From the NCBI GenBank assembly GCA_905178155.1, contig CAJINV010000004.1:218969-282968 (forward strand): DNA of 64,000 nt, written 5' to 3'. The stretch is from Amoebophrya sp. A120. Taxonomy: Eukaryota > Protista > Dinoflagellata. This document shows, one piece after another, positions 2,188-63,455 of this stretch. Position 1 is the first letter of the stretch. Each line of letters starts with the position of its first letter. Both the position numbers and the translations under genes were made by a program. The notes under the pieces were generated by a model, which saw only the letters and a program-made list of their open reading frames with translations, made no database searches and was not told the DNA's origin.

Positions 2188-2334
2188 TGGTGCCGGGGGT
2201 TTCTCTTCCGCATATGGAACAGATGAGTACAAACAAATGGGCGGGCTTCGGCGGCTCACGAGAGAAATTATAATACAACCTGCGTATATGGTAGACGAGG
2301 ACGGGGACGAGACCGATGAGGAAAGTTCAAAAGT
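2188..2334 (+). CDS. Isolated internal exon of an upstream host gene (GAGGFSSAYGTDEYKQ...EDGDETDEESSK)
   Basis: Open frame between a family-1 right TIR (ends 2187, gacccagacatagtttgcagttgATA) and a family-3-like left TIR (TATcc at 2335). Neighbouring exons not resolved. Confidence 0.5.
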
Positions 2335-4472: not shown

Positions 4473-7400
4473 ATGCAGCTATCTCCTTGCGCTTGCGTGA
4501 GCGCCACCACGTGCTTGCTCCGCGGGTCGCCTCAGTTCGTAGGCCAGGAACTGTGGCCAGGCTACAGCTTGCGTCCTGAGCCTCAGCCTCTTCAAGTTAT
4601 GCACGGCAAACCTTCCTGGGTCTGGATCTGGAACACAAACAGCGCAAACCTTGTCATGCGTGTTTTCTAGGCCCCCCAATTCCAATGAGCAGGTCTGGGA
4701 TTCAAGACGTAGCGCGACAGATTCTGCGCGGTCTTTCTCTTGCCTCTCCTTGATGAGAAAATCCCTCTCAACTTTCTCCAACAGTGAGCAACTTTTGGCA
4801 ATCACGCAGTGGAGACTTTTGCGTGACCCGCGGGACGTCTCAGAAGTTTGCGACTTTCTGGACTGAGTCATATTTGCGACGCGTAGGCACTAGTCGGCGC
4901 ACTGCAATGAGCAGCATAGCACCTGCTCTACATTGGGCCCGTAAATGGAGTACTATCTTCACTCTTTCAGCAATTTCGAGCTCCCTCGTGTCAATGTGTG
5001 AAGTCTTCTCGTGCCTCGATTCGGTCTTTTTGGAGATGAACAAAAACGCACCATAGTGAAGATTGCAACGCTGCAAGACAGCTCTAGAATTTTTGTGACT
5101 CATGCGTGACACGTTTCCTCGGCTATGAATTGTAGTCGTGCCTATTTCTCGGTCGCAATCCTGATGCGCCGATCGCATCCTAGCTCATATCAAATTTAGA
5201 ATCGCGATTTAATGACATATCTACCTCGGTAGATCCTTTTCGTGTAGTAACTGGGATTTGGGGTCCCCCGTTCGCACTATATCGGCTGGCAGATCCGTAG
5301 AAGCTATTGCACGTTTGCGATCTCCTCCCCTAGAGTGGGGAGGAGCGATGTAGAGTCATCGATATGTGCGTCTGGGGGACGTAGGTTTAGGTGAATTTTT
5401 GCCCTTTTGTTCTACACCGAAGTAGGTGGCGCCAGTGAGGGCATCCCCCAGCGGGGGGAGTTTATTCCTTTTTTCTCACCATAGAGGGTGGCCCCAGCGG
5501 GGGCAGTTTAGCGTGGGCGCGAAAGCCATTGTGAGTTAGGGCCAGCAAGGCCACAGCAGGTTGCTACGATTTCTTTTTCAATCCATGTCTTCGTAGAGAC
5601 ATGGAAGTTTTCTGATACTCATGCTTCAACTGCGCGGCAGGTGAGTACTTGTCTTTGAAGAGCTTGAGGCTCTGTTTATTTTTGCTCAAATGAAGGAAGG
5701 TCTTCAAAAACAAAGGATACGCGCTCAGAGTGTTAGATCGGAAATTGGATCCGACAGTGTGCGGAATGTTAGATGTAGGGCTCGGGTAGCTAGGTCGCTT
5801 CTGAGGCCCCGCGCCAAGTCAACCTTTCTCTCTTTCTCTTCTACTACCAGGCTGCTGTAGTGCTTTTGAGGGCAGATAGTGGTCCGTTCCTTTCCAGATC
5901 TAAGTCTCAGTAGGTGCCGTTAGGGCGATGTGTGGATTTGTCTTACCTTGTCTATCACAACTTTGATTGCAAACATGGCTCGGGGCCGCCCGCATACGTA
6001 TTCATTTAGAGGGCCAGCGCCCAGTGTCTTCGGGACACGTTCTCCGCAATCTTCTCACGCAAGAGCATGGCAGGCGTTCAAAGTGCAGAAAGGCCTGGAG
6101 CAGGCCCGGGAAGTTGGGATTGCGGATTTTCGACAGTTTGCCGCTTTTCTTTTGGCCCAGGGGTTTACCTCTGCGGCGGGTTACCTGTCTTCAGCAGTGA
6201 CGCTAGAAGGGGAGGCGGGAAGAATTAAAAACATTTTATTCCCCCGGCAGCTCCTCGGTCTGCAGCGGGCAATCGGCCGGTACTTGAAATCGCAGAACCT
6301 TCAACCGAAGAAGGCAACGCCCATCTTTTTGGCTTCCCTGGGCCGTATGACACAGCGGGAGAAAGAAATTTTAGTAGTGGCCTCGGCGCTAGGGATCCGT
6401 GGCGACACCCTGACGGCGATTAGCCGCTCGCAGGTCTTCCTGCGTAGGCAGGGAGGTGTGACCCGGTCAGCAGCTTTGATGGTCCGCAAGGACAAAACCT
6501 CGCAGCTACGCCGCATGGAGGTGCTCTGCATGTGTAAGAAGAGCCGGGTGAATGTTTGCCCGGTGTGCTCAGTTGAGAACTGGGCCACGTTGTTTCCGAT
6601 ATCGAAGTGCGAGTTCATGTCTGCCTGTAGGCTAGCCGAGACGAGTGGCCATGGGCCACGTCGTACGTGTGCGATCACGTCGCGCTTAGCATGGAATAGG
6701 AAGAAAGCCGCCAAAGCTCGGCAAAAGCTTGTGGCGGTGGTCTCCAATAGGCAGGGCTGGTCTCTTCAGGCTAGGAGCCTGTCCTTTTTCGAATACAGTG
6801 ATGACTTTGCGCGATTCTCTGACCAGGAGCAGCAGCTTCTATGCTGCTGGTCTCCGGAGGAGGACGACCTGGAGTGAACGCCTGGTGCATTATGTTTCAG
6901 CTCGAGCTACAGGCACTGCACAGCTGGAAACTTCCAAATCGTTTTCTAAAAAACCAGAGTCCGCATAGCGCAGAAATATATTTGCTTCACTTTTGTCCAG
7001 TGGCGGTCTGTTCTATTTCGTGCACGAGTCGCTCGGAAATTGTTGCTACATAAATTTGTTGGTCCCAAATCTAAAATCTGTCAGATCTTGAGCCCAGGGC
7101 TAGCCCGATTTTTCTTGACAGATACGAAATGCGAGTGGTTGAGTATGTTTAGGTCGGTATGGGAAAATCTTTGATCGCAGCAGGAGACGCTGCTTGTAAA
7201 TGGGATCTGGGCCCTCCCCCCCCCTCCCACTTTGGGTTCAGACCGGTTTCTTCTCGCTTATTTTCCACGTACAGGGGACCACGTTAGATACGAGCAAGTG
7301 TATCTTGCCACTTAGTTCACATTCACACTCACATTGAGCATCGCTTTTAGGTTCAGATACAAGATGCCCGCGAAAGCAAAAGCAAAGGCGAAGCACCCGG

Positions 7401-10400
7401 CCAAAGCTAAAGCTCCGGCCAAGCCCAAGGGGAAGGCGCCGCCCCACAAGGCGAAAGCGGTTAAGGCGGTCGCTAAACCGTTTGCGAAAGTGAAAGCCCC
7501 GCCGATGGCGGCCCCCGAAGTTGAAGAAGATGAGATTTGCGCTGCTCTTCTCGCGGAGGAAGAGGGCGAGGCGGGTCCGGCCCGCAAGGGCCCGCCCCCG
7601 GTGAAGAAGCGGAAGGCCGTGCAAGATTTTAGTGACAGTGAGGTCGAGGCCTTTGGGATCTCGCGATCCGAATTATTAGCGCACCAGCGGGAGCCTTCCC
7701 CACTTGATTCGCTGTCCTCGGTAGATGTGCCCGCGGAGAGCCTGGCACGAGCTGTGCTGGACTACAACGGTGTTAGGTCGCTCCACATCTGCAGTAGCGT
7801 GGAGATCAAGGCGCTTAAGGGCATCAAGGCCCTCAATGCTTCGGAGCGGGCCGAAGTGAAGATGATTTTGTCGTCCGCGCCTAAACATAGAACCGCGCAG
7901 ACGACTCGCTTCGGGATTTTCTTTGCAGACCATTTCACTGAACAGGCTTACGGGGTACGAGCGAAGATTGATGCTAGGTTGCCGCTCGAGGATCTGGCGT
8001 CCTACTACAAAGCCGAAAAGGGGTCGCCTACCACTAACGTTATGCTGATTCGCAACACACATAAAGTGCTCCGGAACTCCGACCTGGTTTCAGAGGCGGA
8101 GTTTCATGATTTGACTGCCCTGGGGGAGTCGCGCCGGCTGGATCCGGCTCAGTACCGCGATATCCTGAACGGCGAAGTGCGCGGGGGCACACAGGGCTTC
8201 GGGGCCCGTGTCGTTGGGCAGATTCGCTCTTTACAGATCCCGGCACCGCCTAAACAACTCGCTCCACGTCCCCCGGGTCCGGGTCCTGCCCCGCCCGGGC
8301 GTGCTTCTTCCTCCGGAATCCCTAAGGTCTGGGATCCGGTGAGAGGTGAAGAAATTTTGGCTACTACTTCCAACGTGGGGATTGTTTGCCACGACTTTCT
8401 TCGTGGCCGCTGTAATCGCGGAAGCAGCTGCAGATTCCCGCACGTGTTGCGGTCTCCCTTTGTGATAAAAGATTTGAGAGGGGACGCGCAAGCGCCTCCG
8501 AAGTAGGCACTGCAGCATGTGCAGTTTAGTTTTAGAGGTTGGCCCTCGCCTTCGGCCAAGTGGGTCCGTCGGCGTGTTGCTTTTTACTACTCCTACATGA
8601 ACAAATCCATGCTGGCCTGGTTGCTCTTGGATTTTAGCTCCTAGCGAAAGCTTTGCTCTGTTGTGAGAACAAGATGTGAGTGTGATTGTTGTGAGTGGAA
8701 ATTAGAAACGTTCCGGGCCCCCTTGGCCTGGTACTTATTTCGCGGTCTGGCGTGGCCAGGCTCGCGGGGTGTTCCCTTTGTTGCCCTCGGTCTACATTGC
8801 TCCCTGCATTCCGTCTCTGTTGATTAGGTGTAGATGCCGGTTAGATTCCGAGATCGGAGTGGTAGTTGTGCTCACGAGGTGTTTGTGAGCTGTTAACCTT
8901 CGGTCGAGAGGAGAGTGGCTCTTCACCCCCCGTGGGTTGTCTTTCATTGTGTAGCATAGACATGCTCAGCGGTCGGTCTCGTGTTGCCACGGGGATGAGG
9001 GTTGTTTGGCACTGGCGGTAACCAATCCGTTACCCTTGCAAACTCACCTCCTTGGCGGCGCGGTACTTTGTGATCGTTATGCTCATGCTCTTCTCACCCC
9101 TCAGTTCCCGTGCTGACACGAGACCGCGCCCAGGTTGGCTACTTAGTACACTCGCTTTTCTTGTTTTTCACATTCTGGTGGTTTTTCTCTTGTCGCTTAC
9201 ACCACAGGGTGTGGGTGCTATCTGGGCCCACCCCCCACACTCTACTGTGGAACCGTCGCGAGCGACGGTTTCGCCTTTTTCCTTTGAGGGAGAATTTTAC
9301 TTCCGTTTCACAGAGTCGCGCTCGCCAGCGTAGTGCAGCATCAGAATGGAGTCCTCGCCGGCTGACAAGGTTTCTGCCTTTCTCTCTCGGGTCCAGCGGG
9401 ACCGGGACAGGTTTCTACCAGGTTTGTCGCAGGACAGGAGCCACCCGGCCTTTTCGGGTCGGCGACTGATCTCGCGGCACAACGAACAGTGCCTGCGCGA
9501 AGGCCACAGCTCGTCCTTTGGGGATTTCTCGGACCGGATTCTGGCGGGCGTTTACTGGCTGGCCTGTGCCCGGGCGGACCCAGCGACCGTCTCTCGCTCG
9601 GAGCAGGTCTTGGCAGGTGGTTGGAAGGATACCAGGCCAATCCGGTCGAAGTTCAACTTCGGGGTTATTGAGAAGATTGGCAGAGAGTCTGCTTTTTCGG
9701 GTTTCTCGCATGTATGGCGGGTTTTAGCTTCCGGGGGGGAATCGGTCGGCCCCACTGCGGCTCAAGACTTTTGGCCGTCGAAACTCATGAAGGCGTCGGA
9801 GGGTGGACGTTTGCCCCCGGCCCCAACTACCGGCTCCGGTTCGGGGGACCTAGCAGCCTCGGTTGAGGGTGCGGAAAATATTTCGCGCCTGCGGCAGCGC
9901 AGCTCATCGTGGATGCCGGGTGAAGATGTCAAGCACTGCTGGGATACTACAATCCAAGAAACCGAGGACGGCTGGCTCCAGGGTCCTTTTACCCTGGACG
10001 AAGCTTGGGAAAAGGGGGCGCGCATCCTTCTGACTCGTTTTGCACACCATGAGGCGGACAAGATCCGCCTCTGCGACAATGGTGTGCCTTTGAATGTTTG
10101 CTCCGACATCTCGTCGTCGATGCCGATTCCGTCGGTTCATCATGCTCTCGCCCTTGCTTCGAGCTCGGCGATTTTACTAGAAGAAGGCGGCCCGCCGCGG
10201 GTTGACTTCTGGCGGGATTTGCGGGTGTTTGACCAAGGGGGCAACCGGGCAGACCCCCTGGCCTGTGAAGAGTATGATTTTGATCCTTTCCCGGATGCCC
10301 GCCCGTCCGACCCGGGCTGGCGGGAGGTTGCTTGGGCGGCTTTGGACCACATACCGAACTTCGACGCAGCGGAGGATGGTGCGGACCCTGAGGGTGCGGG

Positions 10401-13400
10401 GCTCTGCCAGTGGGTTATCGACATTGCCAACGCTTACAAGAATGTAAGCATTTCGAAGGCGGGGAGCGCGACGAACTGGATCGGGGTTTTCGACCCCAAG
10501 GCGAAGGCCTACAAAGCCTTCCGCGGCCTCACGCTCCTGTTTGGGAACATTCACTCCGTTACGGAGTGGTTGATTGTTGGGCAGTTTCTGGCCTTCTGCG
10601 TTCGGTGGCTTTTCTGCGTGGCCTTGATCATCTATATAGATGATATGACCGGCACGGCGCCCCGCAGGGTTCGCCGTCTCCTGATGCGCGCCATTGTGTA
10701 CATGTTGGAGGTTTTGGGTTTTCCTTGGAAGCCGAAGAAGGTCAAGTGGGGGCGCACCGCTTTGCGGGTTTTGGGCTTGGATTTTGACGTGTCGCAATCG
10801 CCTCCCACGATGCAGTTGTCGGAAGTGAAGCGCGCCACCCTTCGGGCGGCCCTGGTTGAAGTCTTGGGGGCGGGGGAGCTCAGTCCCGCGCGGGCTTCCA
10901 CCCTTTCCGGGAAGTTCCTTTTCCCCTTCTCACTGCTGGTGGGCCGGCGTCTAAATGGCTTGCTGAAGCCGGTCTTTCGGCGTGGAGGTTTGTTTCATTC
11001 TCGCGCCACCTGCCTTCCCTTGGGTTCCGGTTGTGCGGCGAGCTTACGCTTCATGGCGGCCTGCCTCCCGGTCCTTCCTCCGATTTCCTTCTTACGAGTG
11101 GGCCTCCCGGTGGAGGTGTGCTACTCGGACGCGAGTTGGAAGCGGGGGCGAGGTATTCTCGGCGGGGTCCGTCTTCTGCAGGAGGGTGCCTTCCAGGCGT
11201 TCCGCCACCCGGTCTCGCGGGCGGATAATTTTCCATCCGCCTCTTGGGGGTCTTTCCCGATCAACGTGTTGGAGAGTTTTACACCGGTCATTCTGTTGAT
11301 GCTCTGGGGCCCGACCTTGTCGCACAAGCGGGTCGTATTCTTTCTGGACAACACCACTGCGGTGGGGGTTTTGCGGAGTCGATCGGGCGAGCGCGCTCAC
11401 CTGTCGGTGGTAGCGGCTTTATTTTGGAGTTTGTGTGCCCGTTTTGCCATAGTGCCGTACTTCGAGTGGCTCCCCTCCGGGGAAAATGTTGCTGACGCGA
11501 CTACCCGCGATGCACTTTGGGCGCAGTTCTGTCGGGTGGCTAGGGTGCAGCTTCATTCCTGTGTCGCTTTGGGGGATGAGATTCAGAGGTTCCTGACCAC
11601 GGTGGCGACCCCGCTTGAAGATCCTTGTGAGCTGCTGGATTCTATTCCGGCTGAGGAGTTGCTGGCTCAAGTTTGAGCCACTCCGCGATGTTTTTTGCGC
11701 TTGCCCTGTACCCTTTTGTTTTGAGATCCGCCTGTGGACTCAGTGTGCAGATGTTTCTGGACGGTATGACGTCTCTTCTTCAAATACATTTTCCACCTTT
11801 GGGTATGCGATTTACTGCTTCGCGGGCCCAGGCTTGTCATGTGATCCCACTCAGAAAACAGTGTTCCCACTTCTACCACTGGCGGTTTTGTTTGGGTTTC
11901 TTCCCGTGTCTACTTGTCCCTCGCTTTGGGATTTCGTTTGTTCCACTTCGGCGTAGGGCCTTGCCGAGGGCAATTGGGGCGGGGCTGGGTCTCCCCTCAT
12001 TCAACCACCTGCTGTGGGGTTCTGAGGGGTCTTGCCCTGTTTGGCAAGGTGGTGGTGAGGCGTGCTGGGCCTCGGTTTTGGGAGGTAGGCCCAGGACGCT
12101 TTACCCAGCCCCAACGGCGCGGTCCAACGGGCCGCTCGGGTTTAGGGATACCACATGGAAGGAACGAAACGAAAACTAGAAATAGAATTATGAATACGCC
12201 TCCCCTGTGGAGCTGGGTGAGAAATGTTCATCCGCTCGTGCGAATAAGTATGCATCGACAAGCCTGAGCGGGGGTTGGGGGCGTTTTTACTATGGGTAGC
12301 CAAGAAGAACACGACAATACCGACAAAATCAATACGACGGCTGTCGTATGGAGTGCAAATGTGTCTACGTCTGGAAGAATGCAAGACTTGTCAGGTTTAT
12401 CTAAAATGGCTCTGGTTTCGTGACGCGTGTGCGCAAAGAGCTCCCCTTGCGTGCGATGTGTCGATGGCAGTGTGCGTTTTAGATTTTCATGCGCAGCGCA
12501 TACCTGTGCGAAGATCTTTCGTGCTTGTTTGTTGGATGGAATTCTTCAGCTTAAGTAGGCCCATGCGACGACGCCTCTGCATTTTCTTTTCGTGCGCGTC
12601 TCGCTTTCCTTTTCGCTTTTGAAAACTCCCAACCTTCATCCTGGCTTCTCTCGGAAGAATATGCCTGAGATGAAAACGCAAAGGCAGGCCGCTTCTTTGC
12701 TTTATTCGGAAGATCTCCCAGAGGCAGGAAAAGCGAAAAGCCCCGACGTTGCTCACAGAAGTGGCCAGCTTTGGCCACATCCGCATAAAGTTTAAAAAGC
12801 GGAGGACGCTTCTTCTTGGTTACAGAAGGTGCTACGTTTTGGCTCCTTCCCCAAGTGCAGACGTGGAAGAAGGCAAAAAACTTTGCTGTTGTTGGGAAAA
12901 GTGGCCACCTCTAGTGTCTTTTTCTTTGAAGTGCCAGATCAGGAAAAGCCCAGAACCAGAAGCACCCCGCTATACGAAAGTGGCGCGCTTCTGCTTCTTC
13001 GCCAGGGGCCAGAAGCAGAAAGAGCCGGCGCGCTCTTTTTCGTTTACAGAAGCGGCCAGCTTTGGCGCTGTCCCGGACGGCCAGACCCGTGCGAGAGCTA
13101 CAAGCCAGACTCTTTTGCTAACGCGGGGGGTGGTCAGCTCTGGCCTTTTTTGTCCAAGGGCCCGATCCTGATATCGCCAGAAGCTATCTTTTCTGGCCAC
13201 GAAGCAAAGTGATTGGCCATCTTCGAATTTTTTTTTGGGGTCAGTCAAAATCGGAGAAACCCGAAAGCGCCGCGCCTTGCTTGCCTCCTTTCTCGGTAGT
13301 TGTCAGCCTGCAGGCGGTCCGCGAAGGGATTCCTTATCTTCTGAAGCAGCGAAATGCGTTGCGCCATTATTTCTGCCGCAGTTTATTTTTCGCAAGGTAT

Positions 13401-51700: not shown

Positions 51701-53750
51701 CCGCCCACGAAAAGCAGAGTCGTTTTCGCCCCAGCAAGGCACAAATAAAGGACCGGGCTGGGGCGAACGTTCATGGTGGCTGGGCGGCGTCCAAACGTTT
51801 TCCGCACACAGGGCGGGCTTCGTTCGGAGCCGGAAAACTCCCTCGCCGCCTTCTCCCCAGAGAGAGTTTGTCCGCGGCAGAAGCTCGAAGAAGGCAGCTT
51901 TTTTAACTTCCCCGGGCCAGGGCCTGGCCTGCCGCGCCGCGGGCCATTCGTGACGCGCCACGAACCACTCGCGGAGTTGGGTCGTGCGCCGAAAGTGCTG
52001 AAAGGACAGAAATCCTTGCAATTTTTGCAACAGCCCAGCAGTTTCTACAAAAATACGTGAAAAATCGAGGCCCGAAGGCCACCCGGGGGCCGGGCAGCGC
52101 GCGGCCGTCTTGCTGCGGCCACGCTGACTTCTCGCGCCATTGATTTTCTCTGCGCCCATGTTTCCACTGGCGGAGGGCGCTGGTAGCCGGCTGCGTCACT
52201 AGTGGTCGGGGGCCCGTTCTGAGTACCCGAAACCCACTAGCAGGATATCTACTAGCGGCCCTATTTCCAATAGCGGTCTTCCTGCTAGTGTAGCGCGCAA
52301 CCCCTCGCCCGGCAGATTTCTTTGAGAGTTGTGACGCCGCGAGCTTACATCTCTCCTGTCGGCTTTTTTTCCCATCTACCGCTAAAAGCGGCCGGCAGTG
52401 TTCAAGCCGCCGCGAGCGTGTTTGCACATCAAAGAAAAGCCTTGACAAGTTTCGGACTGTTTTGGCTGTGTCGGCGCCGAACCCGCCCCGGCGGGCCCTA
52501 CCGATCGCCGCTGGGGGAGCGACGCAGAGTGAAAGAAGAGCCAGTCATGGTGGCGCCTTACCTTCTGAGGCGCCCAGCGCACCGGATTCCGCCAGGTTGG
52601 GGGGCCCCAAGAGTGGCGAAAAAAATGGGCGGCGGGAAAAACAGAGCGAGCCCGCGCGCCAGGGTCCCCATTGTGGTCAGCATTCGAAGGCCGCAAAACC
52701 GGCCGCCACCCATCGTCCAGCCACCATGCCAGCCCAGGCGCAGGACGAAGGCCAGGAGGTGCTGCGCTACTTCGATTGATAGAAAAAGCAAAAAAGGTGG
52801 CGCGGCCCGCCAAAGAGTGAAAATCCATCCGCATGCCACGGGCCCGATTTCGGGTGGGAGCCTATTAGGCCTAATGCCATGGGCCGTCGTTGCTGGGCGC
52901 CCGGGCGGGGCCAGAGCAGGCGGCGAAGGTAGGAAGTTTTTGTCTCCCGAACCCAAGCGGGCGGCAACTTCGGACCGCGGTTTTTAAAGGTCTGAGGAAG
53001 TGAGCCACCGCCGCTGCGGGATGACTGTCGCCGGGTCCGTCTCGCCTTCGATCCGCGCTCCGCTGTTCCTCCGCCCTCACCGGCTGCCCAAGTTCGGCCC
53101 GAAAGGGTCGGCTTCGTTTAGATTCCATCCGGGCCTGGGCCTTATTAGCCTCGTGACTGAGCTCACTCCCCCCGCTGAAGAGGGGGCTGCTATTTGCAAC
53201 TGTGTCCCGTTGAAGCGCTACAAACGTGGAGTGGCACTGTTGCACGGCAGACGGTTGCCTGTTGAGGGTTCGACAGGTTCGCGCTTATCATGTGGAATGC
53301 CGGCCATTCCTTTTCCTATTCCGCACGCCAGGCGTTTTCTTGTCGCAGAAAATTTTCTGAAGAGCGGAAAGACACTGCACTAAAAATCTCGCGCGGCCCT
53401 TCTTGTGTTGGTAGGCAGGCACACGCCCCAGCCAGTAGAGTGAGTTAGCGTGGCGTAAAAAAAATCTCCCTACACCCTATGGCCTCTCATGATCTTAGTT
53501 AGTCAGGAACTGCTATTGTGTAGTGATTGTTCTTTGGCTTTGGGCTCCAGCTCTAGCGTACTATGAAAGCGGATACGTACTAAATTGAAACTCTGCCAGC
53601 GGGAGCGGGAGAATGCAGCATGTTGCTGGTAAATCTAAATATAGTCGAGATTTGCTTTAAGTGGTGAAAAAAATGTAAGTGCCCGCGTCAGGAGCAGCGT
53701 TACCACTGCGCCCGAGGTCCTCGCTAAGCGATTTCTTGTAGTGCTACTGG

Positions 53751-56700
53751 ATGGACCAAAATGGCGCGGCCTTTCTGTCGCTTCGCAGTCTTCGCCGGCA
53801 GGGGCTGCTCCCTCGGAGCCTTATCAAGTGCACTTCTTATGTGGCTGGGCCTGGAACATTGCTAGGTCGTGAGATGATCGTGCGCGGGCACGAGCTCTGG
53901 ATCACACGAAATCTGTGCTGCATGAGCTCCGAGGCTACTACTGAACTCATGTCGCGGGACAAGCAAAGACTTTGAGAACTATAATCCGCCGAAAAGTCAA
54001 TATCTTACGAGAATGCTCCGACGCACAGTAGAGCGCCTGTCCCTGCATGATCCAGAAGTGGAAGCATGAGAAACAAGCGCTCGCACTCTCCCAGCAGAGC
54101 ATCCTGATCCACCAGGAGGCCTAGACCACGTACTAGAAATGCATAAGCGAGCATATGCATTGCAAGCATGTCTCGGTCTGCAAGATCGTGCGTCGTTGTG
54201 ATTCGTCAACTCGTAGACGATACAACTAGGCAGGAATGCACGCAAAAGCATCGCATTTTGTTTGCGAGGGTTCCTTGAGGCGTATCGCACATGAGAAGTT
54301 AGCCTTTTGCGTAGCAAGAGGCCGCCGGCAACTTCTGGCGCTTGTGCGTCGCAGTTACTTCAGTTCAAGCGGCAGTGCTAGAAGTTCAAGAGCCAGACAT
54401 GTTTGCACTTGATGCGGCAGCTTGCTTTACAGCTTCGCGGAAGCCTATCGAGGGAAAAGGTTTGCCAGAGTCACTATTTTCCAGGTAGTTTTGCGTCAGA
54501 AAGATTTCTGGCGTCACAGCTTCTCCTTGTATATATGCAGAATGAAATATAACACCTAGAACGAACCCAGATCGCATCATGAGGCTCAATTGTCAAGACG
54601 CATTTCGATGCATGGCAGGCGTTTTTCTAATATGCAAGACTGGCGAAGCTGATGGATGATTATGGCGAACTATTTTTGCCTGATAGCAACGCCGTGCTGC
54701 AGACGACAGCAGATGCCGATGTGTCTGGCGGTGGTCGAGAGGACGACGATCGCCACGAATTTAATTTCGAAGACGCTGCCAAAATGGAAAGACTGCGAAG
54801 AACTACCGCATCAGGCACCGCATTGCGCAGCCAGGACTTGACAGCACGAAAAAGGAGGGGGCCTCGAGGCGGCTTGGGGCAGCTGCTTGCATGGAAAAGG
54901 CAACTTCGGACGAGGACTTCGTCTGGCACCAGCGGGGACGCGTTCTCGACGAGGGCGAGCTTTTCGGCTGGCGCTCCAGCGCCAGGAGCTCCAAGAACAC
55001 CAGTAGGCGGAGCGAGTTTGCTCCACCTCTTCTCGGAGGACAGCGCTGCCGGCGTATGAAAACCTCACGTGGGAAATCAAATCCTCAAAGTGAAAATAAA
55101 TTTGTAATGCAAAAAAGTCCGCTTGAAGCAACATTTCTAGTCGGCGCATGACAAATTTCTCGGGCACTCCAAACATGTCTGTCGTGCTAGTACAGTCTTT
55201 TACTCTTTGGTGTCGCATTTCATGCGTCACAAATTATTTCCAGTTTTCGAATTTTCATTCTGAGGCCTCCATACAACGGCGCCGCGCCTGATACACGAGT
55301 GCGCGACCAGCTGGAGATCGACGAGGCAATCGCGAGGCGGAGTCCTCGCATGGCAAAGGAGCTGCAGCGGCGCGAGCGAAAAAGGCTAGCGCAGAGGGAG
55401 AAGCGCGTGGCTGTGCTCGGCGGCGATCCTATGGCCATCTCATGGTTGGCCACCGCAATGAGGATGGAGTCGCGGCTATCCTGACGAGAAACGTCGTCGC
55501 CCCAAATTCAGTTTCGGTAAAAATCAATGCGCTAGATCACACACAACTCCAGATGTTTTCGTTAGCGTTTTGGGACTCACGTATGACAAGTTTTTTCTCT
55601 CCTATGCTGGTGCAGTCTGATCCTGTTATAAATAAGGCATGACTACATGCTGCCAAACCTCGACGAGAAATGCTTCTCATGGGGACGAGCGTTGCAAATG
55701 ATGTCCCTCTAGGTGCATGTCTGCAGCTGCACGGCAATGCTGTGGGTCCAGTTTTTCCACAGGATAGCGGCCGCTCAGCCCGCTTGCCGGCCAGCGGCAC
55801 CAGCAGGACAAAGACAGCAAGGCCCTGCTGGCACGTCGCCAGGGCGAGATCGTACCCCCCTACTTGGTATTCGCTGCAAATATTTCCGGGTCTGAAAAAA
55901 AAAGAGCCGCGTGTTTGTCATGCAGCTTGTGGAGCAGCAGCAGAAAGATGGTCTGAAATGCGCACGTAGAATACACAGAAGAGAGGGTAATTTTGTGAAG
56001 GCTTCTCCATACCTGCCCCGTATGAGACACTCGCTCGTTGTGTGACAACAAATGGGCAGCCGCAGCTTAGCTTGACCCTCATGCAATACAGATTTTCACT
56101 GCTCGAGATTTAGGATCACAAGTTAAAACTCTTCCGGACCCAGGAGCCATATTTGCAATGCATAAGTGGACGAGGATTACAAAAACTGGCCCACGCGAAC
56201 AAGAGCCTCCGCGTCGACGGCCGCCGGAGGCAAGTGGAAAGCGAAGCCAAGAAGGCGGCGGGACACGAACTCCCAGCAAAATAAGACGGGCCCTGCTTCG
56301 TCATCGAGAGGCATCAGCCGGAGTCTTCGGCGCGGAGTACGCAGTGTAAAGGAATGTGTCTGGGTCTGCTGGCCGTAAGGACATGGGACATGGTCATGGA
56401 GGATGGGCATGTTCATGGAGCCGAATATGTTCTCTGTGGTCAGTTGTAACTTGAAAACCTGTGAAGTGTGCACAGAAACAATTGCTCTGCTGTAGCCACG
56501 CGAAGAACTACAGGGAGCTTCCTCTGCGGCCTGAGCCACTATCTTGAGACGCCTTCATCTTGAAACCCGTTGTGCTACATTTACATAAAATGTAGCTGCT
56601 GTGCTGCATTTTTATTCGCCCAAAACTTCTCAAAACTTGACTTTTATGGGGCCCTCTGAGAGCTAGTGAGGCTAATGAAGCTCGTGCACGACCCCTGCAG

Positions 56701-59700
56701 ATCTCTCTCGACCCAGACATGTGTGCGACTCTTTCGCATTTTCATACGGAGGACGCCGGGACTATGAAGCTGTCAGGATTGATGAAATCGTCAAAGTTAA
56801 AATGGTTTGCCATGCATAAAATGCATGGCATGAAGTGCCTGTCTTCCCGGGATGGCAAGTGGGGCAAATTGTGGGCCTATTTAGGGTTTGGGATAGAGCT
56901 GCTAAAGGAGCACGACAAAAGCACTACTCTGTGCCCAAACAGCATGACCAATTGGATTTCGGTGCTCCGAAAAATTCTCATGCGCCGCTCGGGAATTGGT
57001 CTTCCAACTGGTATCCATTTTATGCATGACCAAGCTATTTGCTCAACTTTGTCGATTTCAAGCCTGACACTTCCATAAGGACGATCACGGCCTCCCTCAA
57101 CCTGTGCTCCTGCAGGCCGAGCATATGCACAGCATTGCCCAACAACAAAATGAAAACATGCGCGCGGCGAAGCACGAATACCGAAAGGCGTCGGAAGGTG
57201 CGACGGAAAAAGGCCGGGCGGAAGCCGGGGTCCTTGAGGATCTCCAAGGGCAAAACTATCAAAAGAACGCACAAAGTGGGGAAGCACGAAATAAAGCAGC
57301 AGAACACCGATTGCTGGAGCATCAACACGCGCAACAAAGGGCCGACGTAAGCTCAGCACTGATGTCCTCCTCGAAATCTAGCTCTGGGGCACAGCAAGAA
57401 CAAAAAGAGACAAAATCCAGCAGCGCACAGCGAGACGCCTTCTCGGCGTCTATTCCCGACGACTGGAACCTGTATGATTTCCATATCACGCACTCACCCG
57501 GAATGATATCAAATACGAATGCGTCTGGGCCTGGAAGATTGTGAGACCGGCAGTGCCAGTGGGACATGGCTGCTGGAGAGTCTGTGGCGCATGGTGCAGA
57601 AGACGCAGAGAAATGCTGGAGCGCCCAGCTGTTGCTATACATGCAAAAACGCAGCTTCTGATGCAAAATACGCACCGCGGAGCTTGTTTCCAAAACCTTG
57701 TCGGACCACTCGGCGGCGTACGATTATAGTGCGTTTATAGTCATTATAGCGGCGGCAAAAGCTTACTTTTGCGAAAATAAAAAAAATATTGGGTGGCTTT
57801 ATCGTGGGCCTCGCAGCCCAGCCGAATCAGCACGCTTCTGGACTCAGGACGGCGTAAGACCCACGCCAGCGCAGCGCTCACCCAGTTTGCTCTGCCGTGC
57901 TGCCGCAAAGTCAAACACAACACACCACCGCAGCACCCCTTGCGGAAGGCGCGAAAGGTCGCGCCAACTTCAACGCCCGCACACGCCAGGGCGGGCATCG
58001 TGGGCAGGGAGCCGGGCCCGTCGTTGACCCCTTAATGGGCCAGTCCCGCCAGGTCTGCGCCGCTCCAAATTTCGTCGGGGCAGGCGGAGGCCCGGCAGGC
58101 GCGGCCGAATCTGGCCAAGCCAAAGGCACGGCGTGATATGGAATGGGCGAGCGCCTTGCGCCCCACCAGATGTCCCGGGGCCATGCTCCTGTGCCCCGGT
58201 CCGGCGGCATCATCGGGCGCAATGCCCATCCCTGATTGCCCGGCGAGGTGCCGCAAAACCCCTCGGCCGCCGCCCACGACCCCTGCTCGGCCGACCGCAA
58301 TTCCCCAATCGCGCGACACTCGCCCTGTTCAATCAGCCCCATTTCTGCAAAGCGGGCAAAAGCGTGGCTCCATCCCAGCCAAGGTGCCTGCGGTTTGGTT
58401 ACACCTCCCAAGCCACCCCCTAGCGTGCCTCCGCCAATTCGCGGGATTCCTTGCAAGAACTGCCCGGCGGCATTTCGGATATCAATTTCGCGGAAAACAC
58501 CCGCCCGGCGACACTGCCAGCACGCTTGGAGGCTAGAGCACAAGCGCCGCAGCCCTGGGCAACACAGCGGGGCAGCCGGGCCCCCCTTTTTGCAGGTGGG
58601 GAACTTATCAAGCGGCCCGCGCAAGGGGGGCCCGACCGCGGCGCGCCGTGCCCTAGTGGCCCCAAAACCTTGTCGGACTCGGCGGCGTACGATTATAGTC
58701 ATACACGAGCAGTTTATAAAATAACACTAGAGTATTTTTACTCGGATTTTTGGCCCTTATAGTCTATAGGGGCTTCCTTAGAAAATGAATTCTAGGAAGG
58801 AAGCTTTCTAGAAGCTTCCCTTAAGTGAGCTCCTAGGGGAAGCCTCTAGGAGAACGCACTTAAGAAAACGACTGGCATGGTGACCCGGCCTAGAAATTTC
58901 TGTAGGCATTTTTTTCGTTTAGGTAGCTTCTTGCAAGAAGCTTCTGAGAAGAGCTTCTAAGTGCCCATCTGAATTCAGATGCGCGCCGGGGCACGCGCCT
59001 GCCTGAATTCAGCTGAAAACAGCGAAAAGAATCAACTGCAAGCGGGCCGAGGGCTGGCCAAGGCCCAAGGGTGCGCCCGCCTACTTTTAGGTAGATGCCG
59101 GGCCAGCCATTGCTCCCAGCGCAGACGCCGGGCCAATCTTCCTCAATTGAGCCGCACGGCGGTCCCAGCGTCTAAATGCAAGCGGGCGCCGGGACAAGTC
59201 CGATAGGATTTATGTTCACTTCGGGCCCGGTTCGCTTGCATTTTTCAAGCAGGCGCCGACTTGAGTTCAGGCATTTTCCACAGGAGGGGACTTAGAAACG
59301 CAAGACCTCTCCTGTGAGAGACAGCCTCGAGCTCTGTCGCAGGGATGCAACTTTATTGCGCCTTGGCCTCTTTCACTTTCTCGGACGGGAGCAGTGGTTC
59401 CTAGCTTCTACGCCCTAGCCTTGGCTTCCACAGGAGGGTGCGTAAAAGGTCCAAACTGCTCCCGAGAAAGAAATCCCCAATCTGCGTTGCAGAAGGTGAG
59501 CGGCTTTGTGCTTGGGCGGCTTCTTTTTCCCTCTGGAGCGGCCCCCAGTGCGTAGTTTATTTGGATGATGCTTCTTAGTTTACTAGACGCCCCATCGCCG
59601 GCGTCCTGGACGCCGGCGTAATGGTCTAGTACGATTATAGTCATTTCCAAAACCTTGTCGGACTCGGGCGTTACGAGTGCGTTTATTATCATACACGAGC

Positions 59701-62700
59701 AGTCAGCATGACAACTTTCCAGAAGATTCAGATATATTTGTAGTGCATGAGTGACCACGTGCGACCACGGAGAACCCGTGAAGGAAGCGGAGTGCGAGCA
59801 CGCCGTGACCCTGCTGCGCCGCAGTATCGGATCGAAAAGTGCCTTGCCGCTCCAGATCGTCGGGTAAGGATTTGCAATGCAGGAGATAGGTCGAGGACAC
59901 TAGTGAAAATATATAATTAGTACGGGGACCGACTTATTTATATTTTCTCTTTCTCCGATTTTGCGTATATTTATTCCTAGAAAAACAGCAGCGCAAAGAA
60001 TCGACACCGGGCATTGGCCAGAGACTGCGTGGTGGTAGACAAGGCTTGCTAAGCGAAAAGCGGGCACTGCCGTTGGAGCGCTGCTTTGCACGCCTGGAAT
60101 CTCTTGAAGCGGAAAGAGCCCTCCGTGTCCATTCATGCAAGACAAAAGGTTTCCAGTTTTTTCGCGGAGCAGACGCTGCGGTGGCACTTTGCATTTTCAT
60201 AGGGAGGTTTGGGGGTCCGGTAATCCCGGATATTGCGGTCGGCGAAGGCGGACGCTTATGCATTGCAAATAAACTACAAGTGTCGTGCTAATATTGATTG
60301 CAAGATATACATAACAAATGCCTCTAAGATGGTAGTGCTGACTCACGCTTACAAATACAACTTGAGTTCCTAAGTCATTTAAAAAATCTTGAATCTCAGG
60401 AACTCAAGTTGTATTAACAGGGAGTCTTAGGACATTCTAGCGTCGTTATTCCAAATCCTAATAATATTTTACAAGTTACTAGGACTGCAATCATGCAGGA
60501 CATTATGTCCTGCTGCATGATTGCAGTTACTACGATTGCGATGCTTTTGTGTAGAATAATGCTGTGGCGACGGGGCCTGGGGCGAGGTCCCCATGGGCTG
60601 CTCCGTCCGGATATGAATCGCAAATGTGTCTAGGTCTGCAAGGTCTGCCATGCTTCTCTGACGTGACTTCAAAAGGTTTGATGCATGTCCATAGTGCGGC
60701 CTTGTTATGCAAAGAGAAAGAACAAGAAACACTTTGCCATGCGAAATACACATAGCGCATTCAAATACTTCTATATATTTGCCATGCTCGGCTGTGCAAG
60801 TGCATAATTACACGAGGTTTGTCTTATGTTATTCCCGATGTTTTCAGCATCACAGGGCTTCAGAGCCAGACATATGCTGCGTTTGATACCGGACGGGCCA
60901 TTACGACTCCAACGGCCAGCACTCCTACGACAAGGCATTATGGGAGTCTCATGGCCGACGCCGAAATCGACAGAGTTGAAATTAGTAGCGTGCGACGCAT
61001 GAACTCCAACTCGATACCAGGAGTTGGGCGACCAACTACTTTTCATCGTAGCGTCACAAATTTTGTAAGCACCTCAAGAAATCTATATCTGTCATGCTAT
61101 TTGGGGCAAAGAAGACTCGACTGCTTTTGCCGCGCTTCTTCGCACCTCTAGCAATAGCCGCTCCCGTTGAAGAGGCTCCCGCACTCAGCGTCGCCTGCCA
61201 TACCTGCGGAACAGGTATTCTGTGCAGCCCGGCACCCATGCGTCCGCGTCGCAAATCTCTTCCCCTTTGTCGATTTCGACTCTGGCGCTTTCATAGTGCT
61301 TATAAAATGCAAATGTGTTTCGGTCTGGAAGAATGCCGATTTATGTCATTTTGTTGTTGCATGATATCACAGGAGATCTGGCATGGAAGGTCTAGTGCCG
61401 CAGGTTTTCTTTTTGAGAAAGCTTCACAATGCCTAATAAATCCGCATGACAGTAATTACCCCCTCTCTCGTTGGCAACATCAAGTGAGCAACTTTTGCTG
61501 TCCAGCTCCAGTCATGCGCATGCGTGACAGGTTTTTGTGTGGTCTAAGTTGCGCTGCATCAAAAAAACAAAAAGTCTGCATTTCTCCCAGACCCAGACAC
61601 GCTTGCAATGCATAGACCTGGCGACCCTACTACAAGGGGGGAGACCCGCCGGAAGGATACTACTCCTACGCCGATTGCATCGGGCAGCAGTACCAGCTTG
61701 TTTGCCGGTCCGAAGCGTCAATGAGTGGCGCAGCAGGGATATGAGAGTGCATAATCCCCCCTCCCCCTCATTTGAAGGGCATGAAAAGCAAGACAAGCAC
61801 AAGCGAAGGCGGAGCCTTTCTTGCATGACAAGGAGCGCGATTGCCGTCTCGAACCCAAAGGCTTCAGGTGATGACAAACCTCACCACGATTCCGTCCCAG
61901 GAGGCCTTATTGCTGTCTTTCGAGGCCATCACTGCGTCCAAATTCGCCACCTAGAATTCATCGAGTACGCGGCTAAAATTCTGTAGAAGTAATTGAAAAC
62001 ATCAGGGACGCCCTCCCATAGTTTCCCAACACGAAACGCGCATTTTTCTGCTGCTGTTTGGCCTTTCGGAATGATGTCTAGATGTCGTGCAAACCGCAAC
62101 ACCAGGGCAAGAGTTAACTTCTTGAATTCAGTTTGAAATCAGTTTGAAATGAAAGTACAAGACGAGCGGTCTGGAGTTAAGGGCCACACAAAAAAGATAA
62201 ATGCGAATTTGCAGCATGGCAAAACAGGCGGAGCAAGAGGCTTTTGCACCCTCATATGGGAAGCCAGTCCACCTTCTGAACGTAGAAGACGGCGACCTCT
62301 TTTTCGCGGATCCAGGCGCCATGGCGTGTTATGCGAGGCAAATATGGTTGGGCCTGCTGGAGCGAAAACTTTTGATGCGGATTTCGAAGTAGGCATGTAA
62401 AAAATTGTGTTGCAGCATACTCAGCGAACGATGTCGGATTTTTATGTTCACGAGAAGGCATTTCCATTTCTCTTGCAGGCTAGCTATGGAGAAGCTTTGA
62501 GAGGACTTGTGATGCTCCGTGCACATTTTTCCAGAGCCTGATGCAGAAGCAAAAACTGCATGACAAACTTTCGCTGTCTTTCAGGCGGCCGATAAATATT
62601 TGGAACGCATACTGATCCCGACGGAGTAATGTTCTCCGGTACGTCCCTGGATTGCGAACGCGTTGGGTTGTATCAAATGCAAATATTCCAAAGCTGCTGG

Positions 62701-63455
62701 AGAGTTGCGGTCCTGAACTGTGGATGATAAAAGCAGTTTCGAATGCAAGCACGTACTAGCGTGACAAATTTGCGGAAGGCTCTGTCACACACAATGCGCA
62801 TCAGAAGCTATGTTTTTGCTGTGGCTTTTCTTGGTCCTGCAACAGTACAAATATTACAGAAAAAATATATAATGTAAAGACGAAGAAAGACTGGCATTTA
62901 TGAATGCAACAAGTTCCAACTACTTTCCAGACCCAGACGCAGGCACTTTTGCAATGCATAGGCTGACTTTGTTTCGGGCCTACGCAACCAGCAGCTGGCC
63001 CATGCAGTTTGATTTGGGAACATATGGAAATTTCAAGCACTATTTTTCTTGCTGTTACATGATTTGCCATGTTGCAAAATTACGATCAGCCTCTACACGA
63101 TCAAGCTGCTTCGCGCGGCTTGTATGTTGAAGCGCCAAACAGAATGAAGATCTGCTTCGTAAAAATGCAAGACGTACAAGCGGCGCCCGCGCCCCTGCTA
63201 TTTTTGCGCCGCAAACCCAAACTCATGTGAAAAGGTATCAAGCATAACGCTTGAGATCTCCATAGAGCAACAGAGTGTGCGACCGCGACTACGTTCCCGG
63301 TCGGGTGCAGCATGCGGGTCGGGGCCGAGGGTGACAACACAAACAACTACCGGGCTTACTACAACCGGGCCTATATGAAGCCTGCAAACTTCGAAGCCTA
63401 CGCGGACGGGACTTGCGTGCCGCAAAGTTTCATGCCGGTCTGTTCGATGCCGGGC
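53751..63455 (+). CDS. Multi-exon gene C: low-complexity N-half plus two tandem ~110-aa Cys-rich modules; 3' end not resolved
   Basis: Stop-free after excision across exons 53751-53821, 54151-54153, 54420-54445, 54641-55054, 55279-55476, 55772-55867, 56170-56337, 56752-56762, 57083-57506, 59755-59863, 60243-60256, 60564-60611, 60894-60938, 61620-61739, 62262-62329, 62617-62670, 62966-63022, 63270-63455. Modules: PG.TTCDHG..ECEH..VPMGCSVR..RPYY..CIGQQYQLVC and PGAMACPDG..DCER..FPVGCSMR..RAYY..CVPQSFMPVC. The true start may lie further upstream. Confidence 0.85.
53822..54145. mobile_element. IR introner, family 1 (degenerate)
   Basis: TATcaagtgcac..ctgggcctggaa ... gcctagacc..aatgcATA; DR agcct/agcga. 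Confidence 0.65.
54154..54414. mobile_element. IR introner, family 1
   Basis: TATgcattgcaagcatgtctcgg ... ccagacatgtttgcacttgATG. Confidence 0.8.
55055..55273. mobile_element. IR introner, family 2
   Basis: TATgaaaacctca ... tgaggcctccATA; DR cggcg/caacg. Confidence 0.75.
55477..55766. mobile_element. IR introner, family 3
   Basis: Perfect DR gcggc; TATcctg..gagaaac ... gtttttccacaggATA. Confidence 0.85.
55868..56164. mobile_element. IR introner, family 1
   Basis: TATtcgctgcaaatat ... atatttgcaatgcATA; DR cttgg/agtgg. Confidence 0.85.
56338..56746. mobile_element. IR introner, family 1
   Basis: Perfect DR cggag; tgtctgggtc / gacccagaca arms. Confidence 0.85.
56763..57077. mobile_element. 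IR introner, family 2
   Basis: DR gggac/aggac; right arm ctttgtcgatttcaagcctgacacttccATA. Confidence 0.88.
57507..59749. mobile_element. IR introner, family 1, with ~2-kb passenger bounded by repeated 40-60-bp motifs
   Basis: DR aatga/agtga; excision joins HSPG|(M/V)TTCDHG. Confidence 0.85.
60257..60558. mobile_element. IR introner, family 4
   Basis: DR acgct/atgct; two internal perfect hairpins. Confidence 0.8.
60612..60888. mobile_element. IR introner, family 1
   Basis: Perfect DR ccgga; TATgaatcgcaaatgtgtctaggtctg left arm. Confidence 0.88.
60939..61295. mobile_element. IR introner, family 2
   Basis: gaaatcgacagag / ctttgtcgatttc arms. Confidence 0.82.
61301..61614. mobile_element. IR introner, family 1 (back-to-back with previous)
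   Basis: TATaaaatgcaaatgtgtttcggtctggaa ... ccagacccagacacgcttgcaatgcATA. Confidence 0.88.
61740..62256. mobile_element. IR introner (short-TIR type)
   Basis: TATgagagtgca ... tgcaccctcATA; DR aggga/tggga. Confidence 0.82.
62330..62611. mobile_element. IR introner, family 1 (degenerate)
   Basis: TATgcgaggcaaatat ... atatttggaacgcATA; frame restored (MAC|PDG). Confidence 0.78.
62671..62960. mobile_element. IR introner, family 1
   Basis: DR ggttg/ggctg; right arm ttccagacccagacgc..ttgcaatgcATA. Confidence 0.85.
63023..63264. mobile_element. IR introner (family-2-like)
   Basis: TATggaaatttcaagc ... gcttgagatctccATA; DR gaaca/gagca. Confidence 0.82.

What the first reader, a model, noticed from the sequence alone, without database searches (positions are those of the whole stretch)
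4598..63455. Genes shattered by ~65 TAT...ATA inverted-repeat introns that obey a strict 'element + 5 nt' excision rule
Seen: at least 5 TIR families, nearly all starting TAT and ending ATA, flanked by 5-nt direct repeats. Many repeats are perfect (tgtcg, cctcc, cgccg, ttatc, ctagc, tcttt, ggatg, cgtgg, gaagg, gcggc, cggag, ccgga). Removing element + 5 nt restores the frame at roughly 55 junctions, including the complete gene B. Almost none have GT-AG ends. Known: IR/DR non-canonical introns starting TAT were described in Amoebophrya A120, but to my knowledge the excision machinery is unresolved. Inference: MITE-like DNA transposons with a 5-bp TSD were domesticated as introns and are removed by a structure-guided, possibly non-spliceosomal reaction.
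Basis: partly seen in the sequence, partly recalled or inferred. Interest (0 to 1): 0.85.

Follow-up and report, generated by a model that had tools for sequence, protein, structure and literature searches.

The report
Hairpin introns cut at fixed spacing
In the marine parasite Amoebophrya, dozens of transposon-like inserts that lack normal intron ends are cut out of one gene's RNA at a fixed spacing, one base before and four bases after their mirror-image ends, likely by an altered spliceosome; the inserts were already known, but this exact cutting rule gives a direct way to test how they are removed.

Summary
The window is Amoebophrya sp. A120 DNA with 59 exon-interrupting and 7 nested TAT...ATA elements flanked by decayed 5-nt repeats. 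These are the introner elements of Farhat 2021, so the class is known. A spliced 5,901-nt transcript contig crosses 44 of them. All 29 simple RNA joints tested remove element + 5 nt; 43 of 44 introns fit the rule and one does not. The Farhat text I read calls the border variable or unknown. DNA excision and reverse-transcriptase artefact are unlikely. The machinery is not shown: altered spliceosome about 0.5, Euglena-like separate system about 0.4. The scan noted similar odd introns in other protist genomes, none in this genome.

The parts
2192..49802 (+). Gene A (in-window part): PAN-domain-like protein P0001, 1,600 aa, residues ~90-1,600; stop at 48,797; transcript contig ends at 49,802; N-terminal exons not located in the window
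   Evidence: 22 of 22 RNA record coordinates match the model; residues 139-1,600 identical
3898..22379 (+). Gene A introns 1-15; elements TAT..ATA at 3899-12298, 12347-13887, 14059-14369, 14420-14714, 14784-15115, 15192-15530, 15582-16087, 16119-16340, 16370-16604, 16636-16934, 16981-17324, 17363-18045, 18128-18556, 18614-20266, 20496-22375 (intron = start-1 to end+4)
   Evidence: RNA joints listed for 12347, 14059, 14420; 20496 from record coordinates; 3899 from a loose end; the ten from 14784 to 18614 checked in sum only and by identity to P0001
22611..38531 (+). Gene A introns 16-39; elements at 22612-22960, 23002-23160, 23192-23668, 23757-23913, 23957-24226, 24232-25540, 25599-25977, 26018-26349, 26398-26553, 26559-27739, 28060-29212, 29257-30919, 31015-31349, 31511-31843, 31899-32226, 32396-33676, 33763-34022, 34090-34401, 34491-34782, 34846-35518, 35599-35934, 35967-36272, 36642-38060, 38109-38527
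   Evidence: all covered by listed RNA joints (context)
38694..41800 (+). Exception: 3,107-nt intron whose predicted stem ends in CAU:AUG (38,701 / 41,796); the 3' cut follows the +4 rule, the 5' cut lies 6 nt upstream of the expected place, at GAAAG (1 nt of slack)
   Evidence: (joint with 4 letters between)
41801..41805 (+).
   Evidence: table 5c
41806..48701 (+). Last four gene A introns; elements at 41807-46443 (starts CAT), 46562-47193, 47798-48102, 48345-48697
46561..47197 (+). Intron with no junction slack: begins C-TAT, ends ATA-CGCG; fixes the 1 + 4 register on its own
   Evidence: (both = 0)
36641..38064 (+). The only one of 58 that reads GT...AG, and it does so at exactly the 1 + 4 register
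23956..25544 (+). Two elements in tandem sharing one 5-nt copy (zero-length exon under 1 + 4); same arrangement at 26,397-27,743 and 60,938-61,618
   Evidence: (first two removed as a unit); third inferred from DNA
54600..63472 (+). Gene D, 678-codon open frame running off the window, with 15 elements: 55055-55273, 55477-55766, 55868-56164, 56338-56746, 56763-57077, 57507-59749, 59825-60201, 60257-60558, 60612-60888, 60939-61295, 61301-61614, 61740-62256, 62330-62611, 62671-62960, 63023-63264; a further left end at 63,474
   Evidence: DNA only; no RNA laid; no database protein found
15805..54414 (.). Seven elements nested in other elements or outside modelled exons: 15805-16042, 17607-17912, 23458-23612, 27410-27703, 28214-28851, 35184-35500, 54154-54414
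2334..3809 (+). Further upstream element (TAT at 2,335, right end AAA at 3,805, repeats AAAGT/CCAGT), not counted among the 44
   Evidence: mapping of P0001 residues 90-138; no RNA joint seen

Best explanation
These inserts are the introner elements of Amoebophrya sp. A120, and in gene A they are removed from the RNA with cuts one base before the opening TAT and four bases after the closing ATA, likely by an altered form of the cell's own spliceosome. Shown: the elements, their 5-nt flanking repeats, the length removed (element + 5) and the cut register. Because 1 + 4 = 5, one repeat's worth of sequence leaves with the element: the mRNA keeps four bases of the upstream copy and the last base of the downstream copy, which restores the pre-insertion sequence at any site, in any frame and in either orientation. 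Inferred: (a) the inserts are non-autonomous inverted-repeat transposons and the repeat is a 5-bp target-site duplication; (b) the two ends pair in the pre-mRNA and the terminal UAU/AUA act as the ruler; (c) the 5' end N-U-A-U is read as a GUAU-type donor that no longer needs G+1, and the 3' cut is set by distance from AUA instead of by AG, the first A of AUA (7 nt from the end) being a candidate branch point. Step (c) is the least certain. Confidence in the descriptive part is about 0.93; the figure given is for the whole statement including the spliceosome.
For: Register: of 29 RNA joints, all allow an intron start at -1, 5 exclude 0 and 9 exclude -2; 46,561-47,197 allows only -1. The 1 + 4 model matches 22 of 22 RNA record coordinates and P0001 over 1,462 residues; a uniform register of 0 or -2 gives 6 or 8 differences (the annotation is transcript-derived, so only partly independent). 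Selection on the ends: in 27 old elements the terminal TAT/ATA letters are 157 of 162 intact while their repeats match at 62 of 135; Watson-Crick pairs at end positions 1-3 in 53, 56, 53 of 58 against 19-48 further in. Arms pair: mean duplex -23.2 against -13.3 (other arms) and -10.9 kcal/mol (shuffled); arms paired in the predicted fold of 38 of 46 short introns. Both orientations of related elements are spliced. For the spliceosome: U at +2 in 57 of 58, the one variant being C as in GC donors; Farhat Table S4 lists only NT- starts as A120's main sites and only TT- starts for A25, whose repeat begins TTA, so both strains have T+2 and, by inference, A+3; 83 of 89 spliceosomal proteins found, U1 snRNA and snRNP27 not detected in A120/A25, whereas U1 was found in strain Kv with GT-AG introns; loss of SNRNP27K goes with +4 U in yeasts (PMC10581693 abstract) and +4 is U in 54 of 58 here; the terminal AG is read by pairing with the 5' site and branch A (10.1101/212811 abstract), so losing both marks together is coherent; the exception falls back on a GA donor-like site (one case); tunicate precedent.
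Against: No trace of spliceosomal preference where the letters are free: G at +1 in 18 of 58 (background 30%, p = 0.89), AG at the end in 2 of 58, and of 11 elements whose fifth repeat letter differs only 2 have G at +1. Branch-like YTRAY is rarer in the last 60 nt (12 of 58) than on the mirror arm (26 of 58; p = 0.01, post hoc); pyrimidine share 0.53, no tract. A branch point 7 nt from the end is unusually close, and a paired 5' arm would have to open to meet U6 (own knowledge). About a third of A120 introns are GT-AG, so one machine would need two sets of rules. ATA is as well kept as TAT, as in Euglena's paired code. Terminal TAT:ATA pairs in only 29 of 46 predicted folds, some introns have weak arms (-12 to -14 kcal/mol), and no compensatory end pair occurs among the 58. 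RNA evidence is assembled contigs from one sample (X1, X2, X4) whose RNA status is a guess by the tool, for one gene; the three 2026 RNA runs gave no exon reads. Choice of ends in gene D and in ten unlisted joints was guided by TAT/ATA.
Confidence: 0.5

Rival explanations
1. Same elements and same 1 + 4 cuts, but made by a separate hairpin-guided machine (nuclease plus ligase, or a second spliceosome-like complex) that recognises the paired UAU:AUA stem end, as proposed for Euglena non-conventional introns.
For: Same logic as the Euglena code N3-CDG...CH'G-N5-6 with fixed spacers (PMC12501133); both end triplets equally conserved; no enrichment of G+1, AG, branch motif or pyrimidine tract; coexistence with about a third GT-AG introns.
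Against: The conserved triplet sits at exactly +2 to +4 and spells the donor letters U, A, U; A25 shares T+2 with a different repeat geometry; in the one element whose stem end is a fully paired CAU:AUG the 5' cut slipped 6 nt, which pairing alone does not predict (one case); U1 and snRNP27 are undetected in the strains with these introns.
Confidence: 0.4
2. The joined forms are reverse-transcriptase template switches across hairpins at direct repeats, not real splicing.
For: Hairpins with flanking direct repeats are the classic setting for such artefacts (own knowledge); the evidence is assembled cDNA contigs.
Against: Joints keep one register where only 0-1 nt is shared (13 of 29 allow at most two positions), span up to 1.9 kb (8.4 kb by loose end), occur together on one 5,901-nt contig, and 44 of 58 intron lengths are not multiples of three yet give a 1,462-residue open frame with a 39%-identical paralog.
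Confidence: 0.03
3. The elements are excised precisely from DNA (somatic or stage-specific) rather than from RNA.
For: Transposon-like ends; precise DNA excision of such elements occurs in ciliates (own knowledge); only one DNA run was laid.
Against: Run X5 covers all 30 bins of 31,480-51,479 with long exact contigs and has zero depth at all 15 listed joints (15 further joints not shown); low-depth contigs in X1 and X2 run from exon into element at 46,531-46,925, as pre-mRNA would; the cut splits the two repeats 4 + 1 in a strand-specific way.
Confidence: 0.03
4. The elements are self-splicing RNAs.
For: Paired ends; no standard splice marks.
Against: No Rfam family in the window; interiors range from 155 nt to 8.4 kb, tolerate nested insertions and work in both orientations.
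Confidence: 0.02

Closest known systems
Amoebophrya A120 introner elements / non-canonical introns (Farhat et al. 2021, PMC7789003; also Gozashti et al. 2025, PMC12130899)
   Same: Same strain; inverted repeats starting TAT with an A run about ten bases in; direct repeats at the borders (a 5-bp example is in the Fig. S19 legend); RNA-supported non-GT-AG introns; tens per gene; MITE-likeness discussed; machinery unresolved.
   Different: The text gives repeats of 3-5 nt that vary in position and calls the splice position relative to the hairpin variable or unknown; the 22 of 58 A120 family rows I saw in Gozashti's dataset give repeat lengths 2-5 or none and mixed splice sites. Here: one repeat length (5) and one register (1 + 4) in 43 of 44 introns.
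Euglena non-conventional introns (Nomura et al. 2025, PMC12501133; review PMC11282704)
   Same: Paired three-letter motifs near both ends, fixed spacers to the cuts, direct repeats that blur the junction, proposed MITE origin, unknown machinery, coexistence with GT-AG introns.
   Different: Motif CAG/CTG with spacers 3 and 5-6 and a purine starting the next exon; here TAT/ATA with spacers 1 and 4 and no purine preference (31 of 58). Unrelated lineage; Euglena products are reported as circles, not tested here.
Fritillaria borealis non-canonical introns (PMC13326754 abstract; PMC11282704 section 6)
   Same: Transposon-derived introns without GT-AG, removed by a modified U2 spliceosome.
   Different: They keep preferred end dinucleotides (AG-AC, AG-AT); here the first base and last four bases are free.
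Micromonas / Aureococcus introners (PMC11282704 passages)
   Same: Non-autonomous inverted-repeat DNA transposons whose splicing removes one target-site duplication's worth of sequence.
   Different: They carry or co-opt GT/GC and AG; these do not.

Membership tests
Amoebophrya A120 introner elements (Farhat 2021) | Lies in the A120 genome | tested here: met
   exon 47,200-47,793 is 100% identical to P0001, named Amoebophrya sp. A120 by its source; 1,462 residues identical
Amoebophrya A120 introner elements (Farhat 2021) | Terminal inverted repeat starting TAT, then less conserved letters and a run of A | tested here: met
   TAT letters 57, 57, 54 of 58; A at positions 11-13 in 37, 39, 52 of 58 5' arms
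Amoebophrya A120 introner elements (Farhat 2021) | 3-5 nt direct repeat at the exon/intron borders | tested here: met
   5 nt; 199 of 290 matches against 75 by permutation
Amoebophrya A120 introner elements (Farhat 2021) | RNA-supported intron without GT-AG | tested here: met
   28 of 29 joints cannot be read as GT/GC-AG; gene D not tested with RNA
Amoebophrya A120 introner elements (Farhat 2021) | Repeated in the genome; belongs to one of the 1,954 published families | tested here: inconclusive
   interiors share 68-85% identity within the window and X5 depth reaches about 2,000 against 45 over some elements; family sequences and genome not available
MITE / non-autonomous inverted-repeat DNA transposon | Terminal inverted repeats and constant-length target-site duplication | tested here: met
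MITE / non-autonomous inverted-repeat DNA transposon | No transposase of its own | tested here: inconclusive
   no Pfam hit in 8 non-exonic, non-retroelement frames; only 15 of 67 long frames were scanned; most elements are too short to encode one
MITE / non-autonomous inverted-repeat DNA transposon | Cognate autonomous element with the same ends; empty site in a relative | not testable with these tools
   no genome held; metagenome scan found no related locus; Farhat found no transposase in A120; Gozashti describe an integrase-like inverted-repeat family 38 in A120, not compared here
U2-type spliceosomal intron | GT/GC at the 5' end | tested here: not met
   GT 18, CT 15, AT 13, TT 11, AC 1 of 58; positions +2 to +4 do match GUAU donors
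U2-type spliceosomal intron | AG at the 3' end, branch motif, pyrimidine tract | tested here: not met
   AG 2 of 58; YTRAY 12 of 58; pyrimidines 0.53
U2-type spliceosomal intron | Lariat product, dependence on U2/U6/Prp8 | not testable with these tools
   only assembled contigs held the gene
Euglena-type non-conventional intron | Paired triplets at fixed spacers from the cuts | tested here: met
   spacers 1 and 4 against 3 and 5-6
Euglena-type non-conventional intron | CAG/CTG motif and purine at the start of the next exon | tested here: not met
   TAT/ATA; purine 31 of 58
Euglena-type non-conventional intron | Excised as full-length circle | not testable with these tools
   no raw reads on the gene

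The most novel reading that the evidence does not exclude
A120 has a simple, genome-wide second splicing code, N-UAU...AUA-N4, executed by a spliceosome-independent (or radically rebuilt, U1-less) machine that measures from a paired stem end. It evolved convergently with Euglena's N3-CAG...CTG-N5 code and makes any TAT-ended transposon with a 5-bp target duplication a perfect intron at any site, including back-to-back copies separated by zero-length exons.
Probability: 0.35. Interest if true: 0.85.

Novelty: already known. Interest (0 to 1): 0.5.

Why it matters
The elements are published, but their borders were left as variable or unknown and the machinery as an open question. A fixed 1 + 4 register turns about two thirds of this genome's introns from 'no signature' into a predictable code. 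It would allow correct re-annotation, explain why insertions of one class of transposon are harmless, and give exact ends for assays that separate lariat, circle and linear products, which decides between a relaxed spliceosome and a second eukaryotic mRNA splicing system. It also sets up a direct comparison with Euglena's code and a prediction for strain A25.

Tried and rejected
No whole genome is held, so no genome-wide count, transposase search or snRNA search was possible. No listed holder of the stretch is on record as RNA; X1-X4 are a guess, supported by zero depth over long intronic bins, 28 spliced joints and a poly-A end. Raw RNA runs X7 and X9 laid 0 reads; X8 laid 33 reads, all partial, on one element interior: no test. 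Each lay showed 15 of 30 joints. Idea that the fifth repeat letter must be identical in both copies: 47 of 58 against 152 of 232 at positions 1-4 (p = 0.026), but 11 exceptions exist and at least five of them are spliced normally, so it is at most a mild constraint. A GT-AG intron near 3,650-3,760 was dropped when P0001 showed the exon starts at 3,810. Separate 'gene B' rejected. Metagenome scan for related loci: none (161 pattern matches, none confirmed). Gene D searches: no protein, weak evidence. Rfam: no match at gathering scores. Element + 2 and + 8 also keep frames open, so frame alone cannot fix the length; RNA does. Paralog P0002 aligns across many junctions but has no DNA here, so it gives no empty-site test. 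Literature searches for the register found no paper beyond those cited; figures (Farhat Fig. 3 logos, S19-S25) are not visible to me and subscription papers are not held, so the register may be visible in print.
Full report
What is there. The window holds two long + strand genes. Gene A runs from before 2,192 to a stop at 48,797; its exon 47,200-47,793 is identical to a 1,600-aa protein labelled Amoebophrya sp. A120 (P0001), with weak PAN-domain matches below Pfam's cut-offs and a 39% identical paralog. Gene D (54.6 kb to beyond 63.47 kb) is a DNA-only model with a 678-codon open frame. I catalogued 44 elements interrupting gene A from 3,899 onward, 15 in gene D and 7 nested ones. A blind finder gives 32 TAT...ATA pairs against 2.0 in shuffles. 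The flanking repeat is 5 nt and no other length: identity 0.69 against 0.25-0.31 for lengths 2-4 and 6-9; 199 of 290 positions match against 75 by permutation. Only 13 of 58 exonic repeats are perfect, so most elements are old.

RNA test of the rule. The run search listed four small-share contig sets guessed to be RNA, two full holders of unrecorded kind and three raw RNA runs under the same species label. X1 holds one 5,901-nt contig that lies on gene A in pieces; X2 and X4, the same sample, give the same joints. Each lay listed 15 of 30 joints; together they give 28 simple joints and one compound joint, and record coordinates add one more simple joint. All 29 simple joints fit element + 5; of other lengths 0-10 the best fits 19. 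Two of the 29 remove a tandem pair each. The full model matches 22 of 22 record coordinates, which checks ten unlisted introns in sum, and equals P0001 over residues 139-1,600. The compound joint contains a 5-nt microexon (41,801-41,805) and the one exception, 38,694-41,800. So 43 of 44 follow the rule. X5, which covers the stretch evenly like DNA, has zero depth at all 15 listed joints. X7 and X9 laid nothing; X8 laid only on one element interior.

The register. Decayed repeats remove the junction ambiguity. All 29 joints allow an intron start one base before TAT; five exclude a start at TAT (20,496, 29,257, 33,763, 34,846, 46,562), nine exclude two bases before, and 46,561-47,197 allows nothing else. 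A uniform register of 0 or -2 changes 6 or 8 residues relative to P0001, and -1 changes none. The intron is therefore N-TAT...ATA-NNNN. The mRNA keeps four bases of the upstream repeat and the fifth base of the downstream one. First and last letters are free: GT 18, CT 15, AT 13, TT 11, AC 1; fifteen different end dinucleotides, AG in 2 of 58. The end triplets are not free: 157 of 162 letters intact in 27 old elements whose repeats match at 62 of 135 (ends were chosen with TAT/ATA in mind for gene D and ten unlisted joints). Arms pair better with their own partner than with others or shuffles (-23.2, -13.3, -10.9 kcal/mol), but some are weak and the terminal triplets pair in only 29 of 46 predicted folds. 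Related interiors occur in both orientations among spliced introns (for example 26,018 and 31,511; 16,636 and 31,899), so the signal is in the symmetric ends. Three tandem pairs share a single 5-nt copy, which under 1 + 4 leaves a zero-length exon; RNA shows two of them removed whole, and cannot say whether in one step or two.

How it likely works. Inferred origin: non-autonomous inverted-repeat transposons with a 5-bp target duplication; the mobilising enzyme was not found (8 non-exonic frames without Pfam hits; no genome). Removal is at RNA level. Because the machinery trims 1 + 4 bases, a 5-bp duplication is cancelled exactly, which would explain why such insertions are tolerated in any frame (44 of 58 lengths are not multiples of three). 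For the machinery I favour, narrowly, an altered spliceosome. The conserved triplet falls on +2 to +4 and spells U-A-U as in GUAUGU-type donors (yeast consensus recalled); the single +2 variant is C. Farhat's Table S4 shows only NT- starts among A120's main sites and only TT- starts in A25, whose repeat begins TTA. U1 snRNA and snRNP27 were not detected in these strains, U1 was found in strain Kv with GT-AG introns, SNRNP27K loss goes with +4 U in yeasts, and the terminal AG is read by pairing with the 5' site and branch A. The exception, whose stem end is a paired CAU:AUG, keeps the 3' cut but moves the 5' cut 6 nt to GAAAG; it is one case. Against this: no excess of G at +1 (p = 0.89) or of AG, fewer branch-like motifs at the 3' end than on the mirror arm (12 against 26 of 58), no pyrimidine tract, equal conservation of ATA and TAT, and a close logical match to Euglena's code, whose authors favour separate factors. 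I put the spliceosome at 0.5 and a separate hairpin-guided system at 0.4. Template-switch artefact, DNA excision and self-splicing are each 0.03 or less for the reasons given under rivals.

Comparison with what is known. These are the introner elements of Farhat et al. 2021 in the same strain: TAT-starting inverted repeats, 3-5 nt direct repeats, a 5-bp example in the Fig. S19 legend, MITE-likeness discussed, mechanism open. [quoted passage not shown] In Gozashti et al. 2025 the 22 of 58 A120 family rows I saw give mixed sites and repeat lengths 2-5 or none. I found no statement of a fixed register in searches; I could not see any figure, part 1 and 5 of Farhat's supplement, or subscription papers, and these may bear on that claim.

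What I read. PMC7789003: abstract, sections 10, 11, 12, 16, 32, passages, supplement text parts 2-4 of 5. PMC12130899: passages, supplement search (12 of 14 files), 22 of 58 A120 rows. PMC11282704: passages and section 6. PMC12501133: abstract and introduction, passages, section 8. PMC12005148 and PMC11453091: passages. PMC13326754, PMC10581693: abstracts. 10.1101/212811: abstract and start of the introduction.

Verdict. The feature is real and the class is already known in this very strain. The added value is the single repeat length and the fixed 1 + 4 register, shown for one gene from one RNA sample, which makes the open question of the machinery directly testable. Interest 0.5.

Noticed in passing
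window 5,924-11,676 (+), inside intron 3,898-12,302: Three intact frames that look like a tyrosine-recombinase (DIRS/Ngaro-like) retrotransposon: 5,924-6,877 (recombinase-like by eye, no Pfam hit), 7,316-8,506 (gag-like, CCCH finger in Pfam) and 9,334-11,676 (reverse transcriptase/RNase H-like; Atlas score 0.97-0.98, one cluster with RVT_1 in 10% of members). It sits inside a spliced 8.4-kb TAT-type intron; RNA contigs cover 12,000-12,175. The family label is my recall.
   Followed up: partly
window 41,801-41,805; 56,751-56,761; 16,092-16,634: Very small exons: 5 nt (RNA-supported), 11 nt (DNA model) and three of 24-26 nt in a row.
   Followed up: partly
window 24,227-24,231; 26,554-26,558; 61,296-61,300: New elements appear to have inserted exactly into the 5-nt repeat of an older element three times; a rough hand estimate expects about 0.5 by chance, so end-targeting is possible but unproven.
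   Followed up: partly
window 26,093-26,130: A 2026 RNA run under the same species label (X8) has no reads on gene A exons but 33 partial reads resembling this element interior with 2-3 differences: perhaps a related element family in another isolate.
   Followed up: no
window 49,489-51,479: RNA contig depth continues past gene A, with a poly-A loose end at 50,984; no gene modelled there.
   Followed up: no
window 54,600-63,472: Gene D, a 678-codon frame with 15 elements, was not found in the protein database with two exon queries; it may be unannotated or annotated differently.
   Followed up: partly
   Followed up: no
element interiors, e.g. window 14,141-14,160 and 15,351-15,365: A short internal motif (CATGACAAA and its reverse complement) recurs in many elements of different end families, seen by eye; it could be a shared transposase-binding site. 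Not counted.
   Followed up: no
window 38,640-38,700: A local duplication of about 17 nt in the exon just before the exceptional intron.
   Followed up: no
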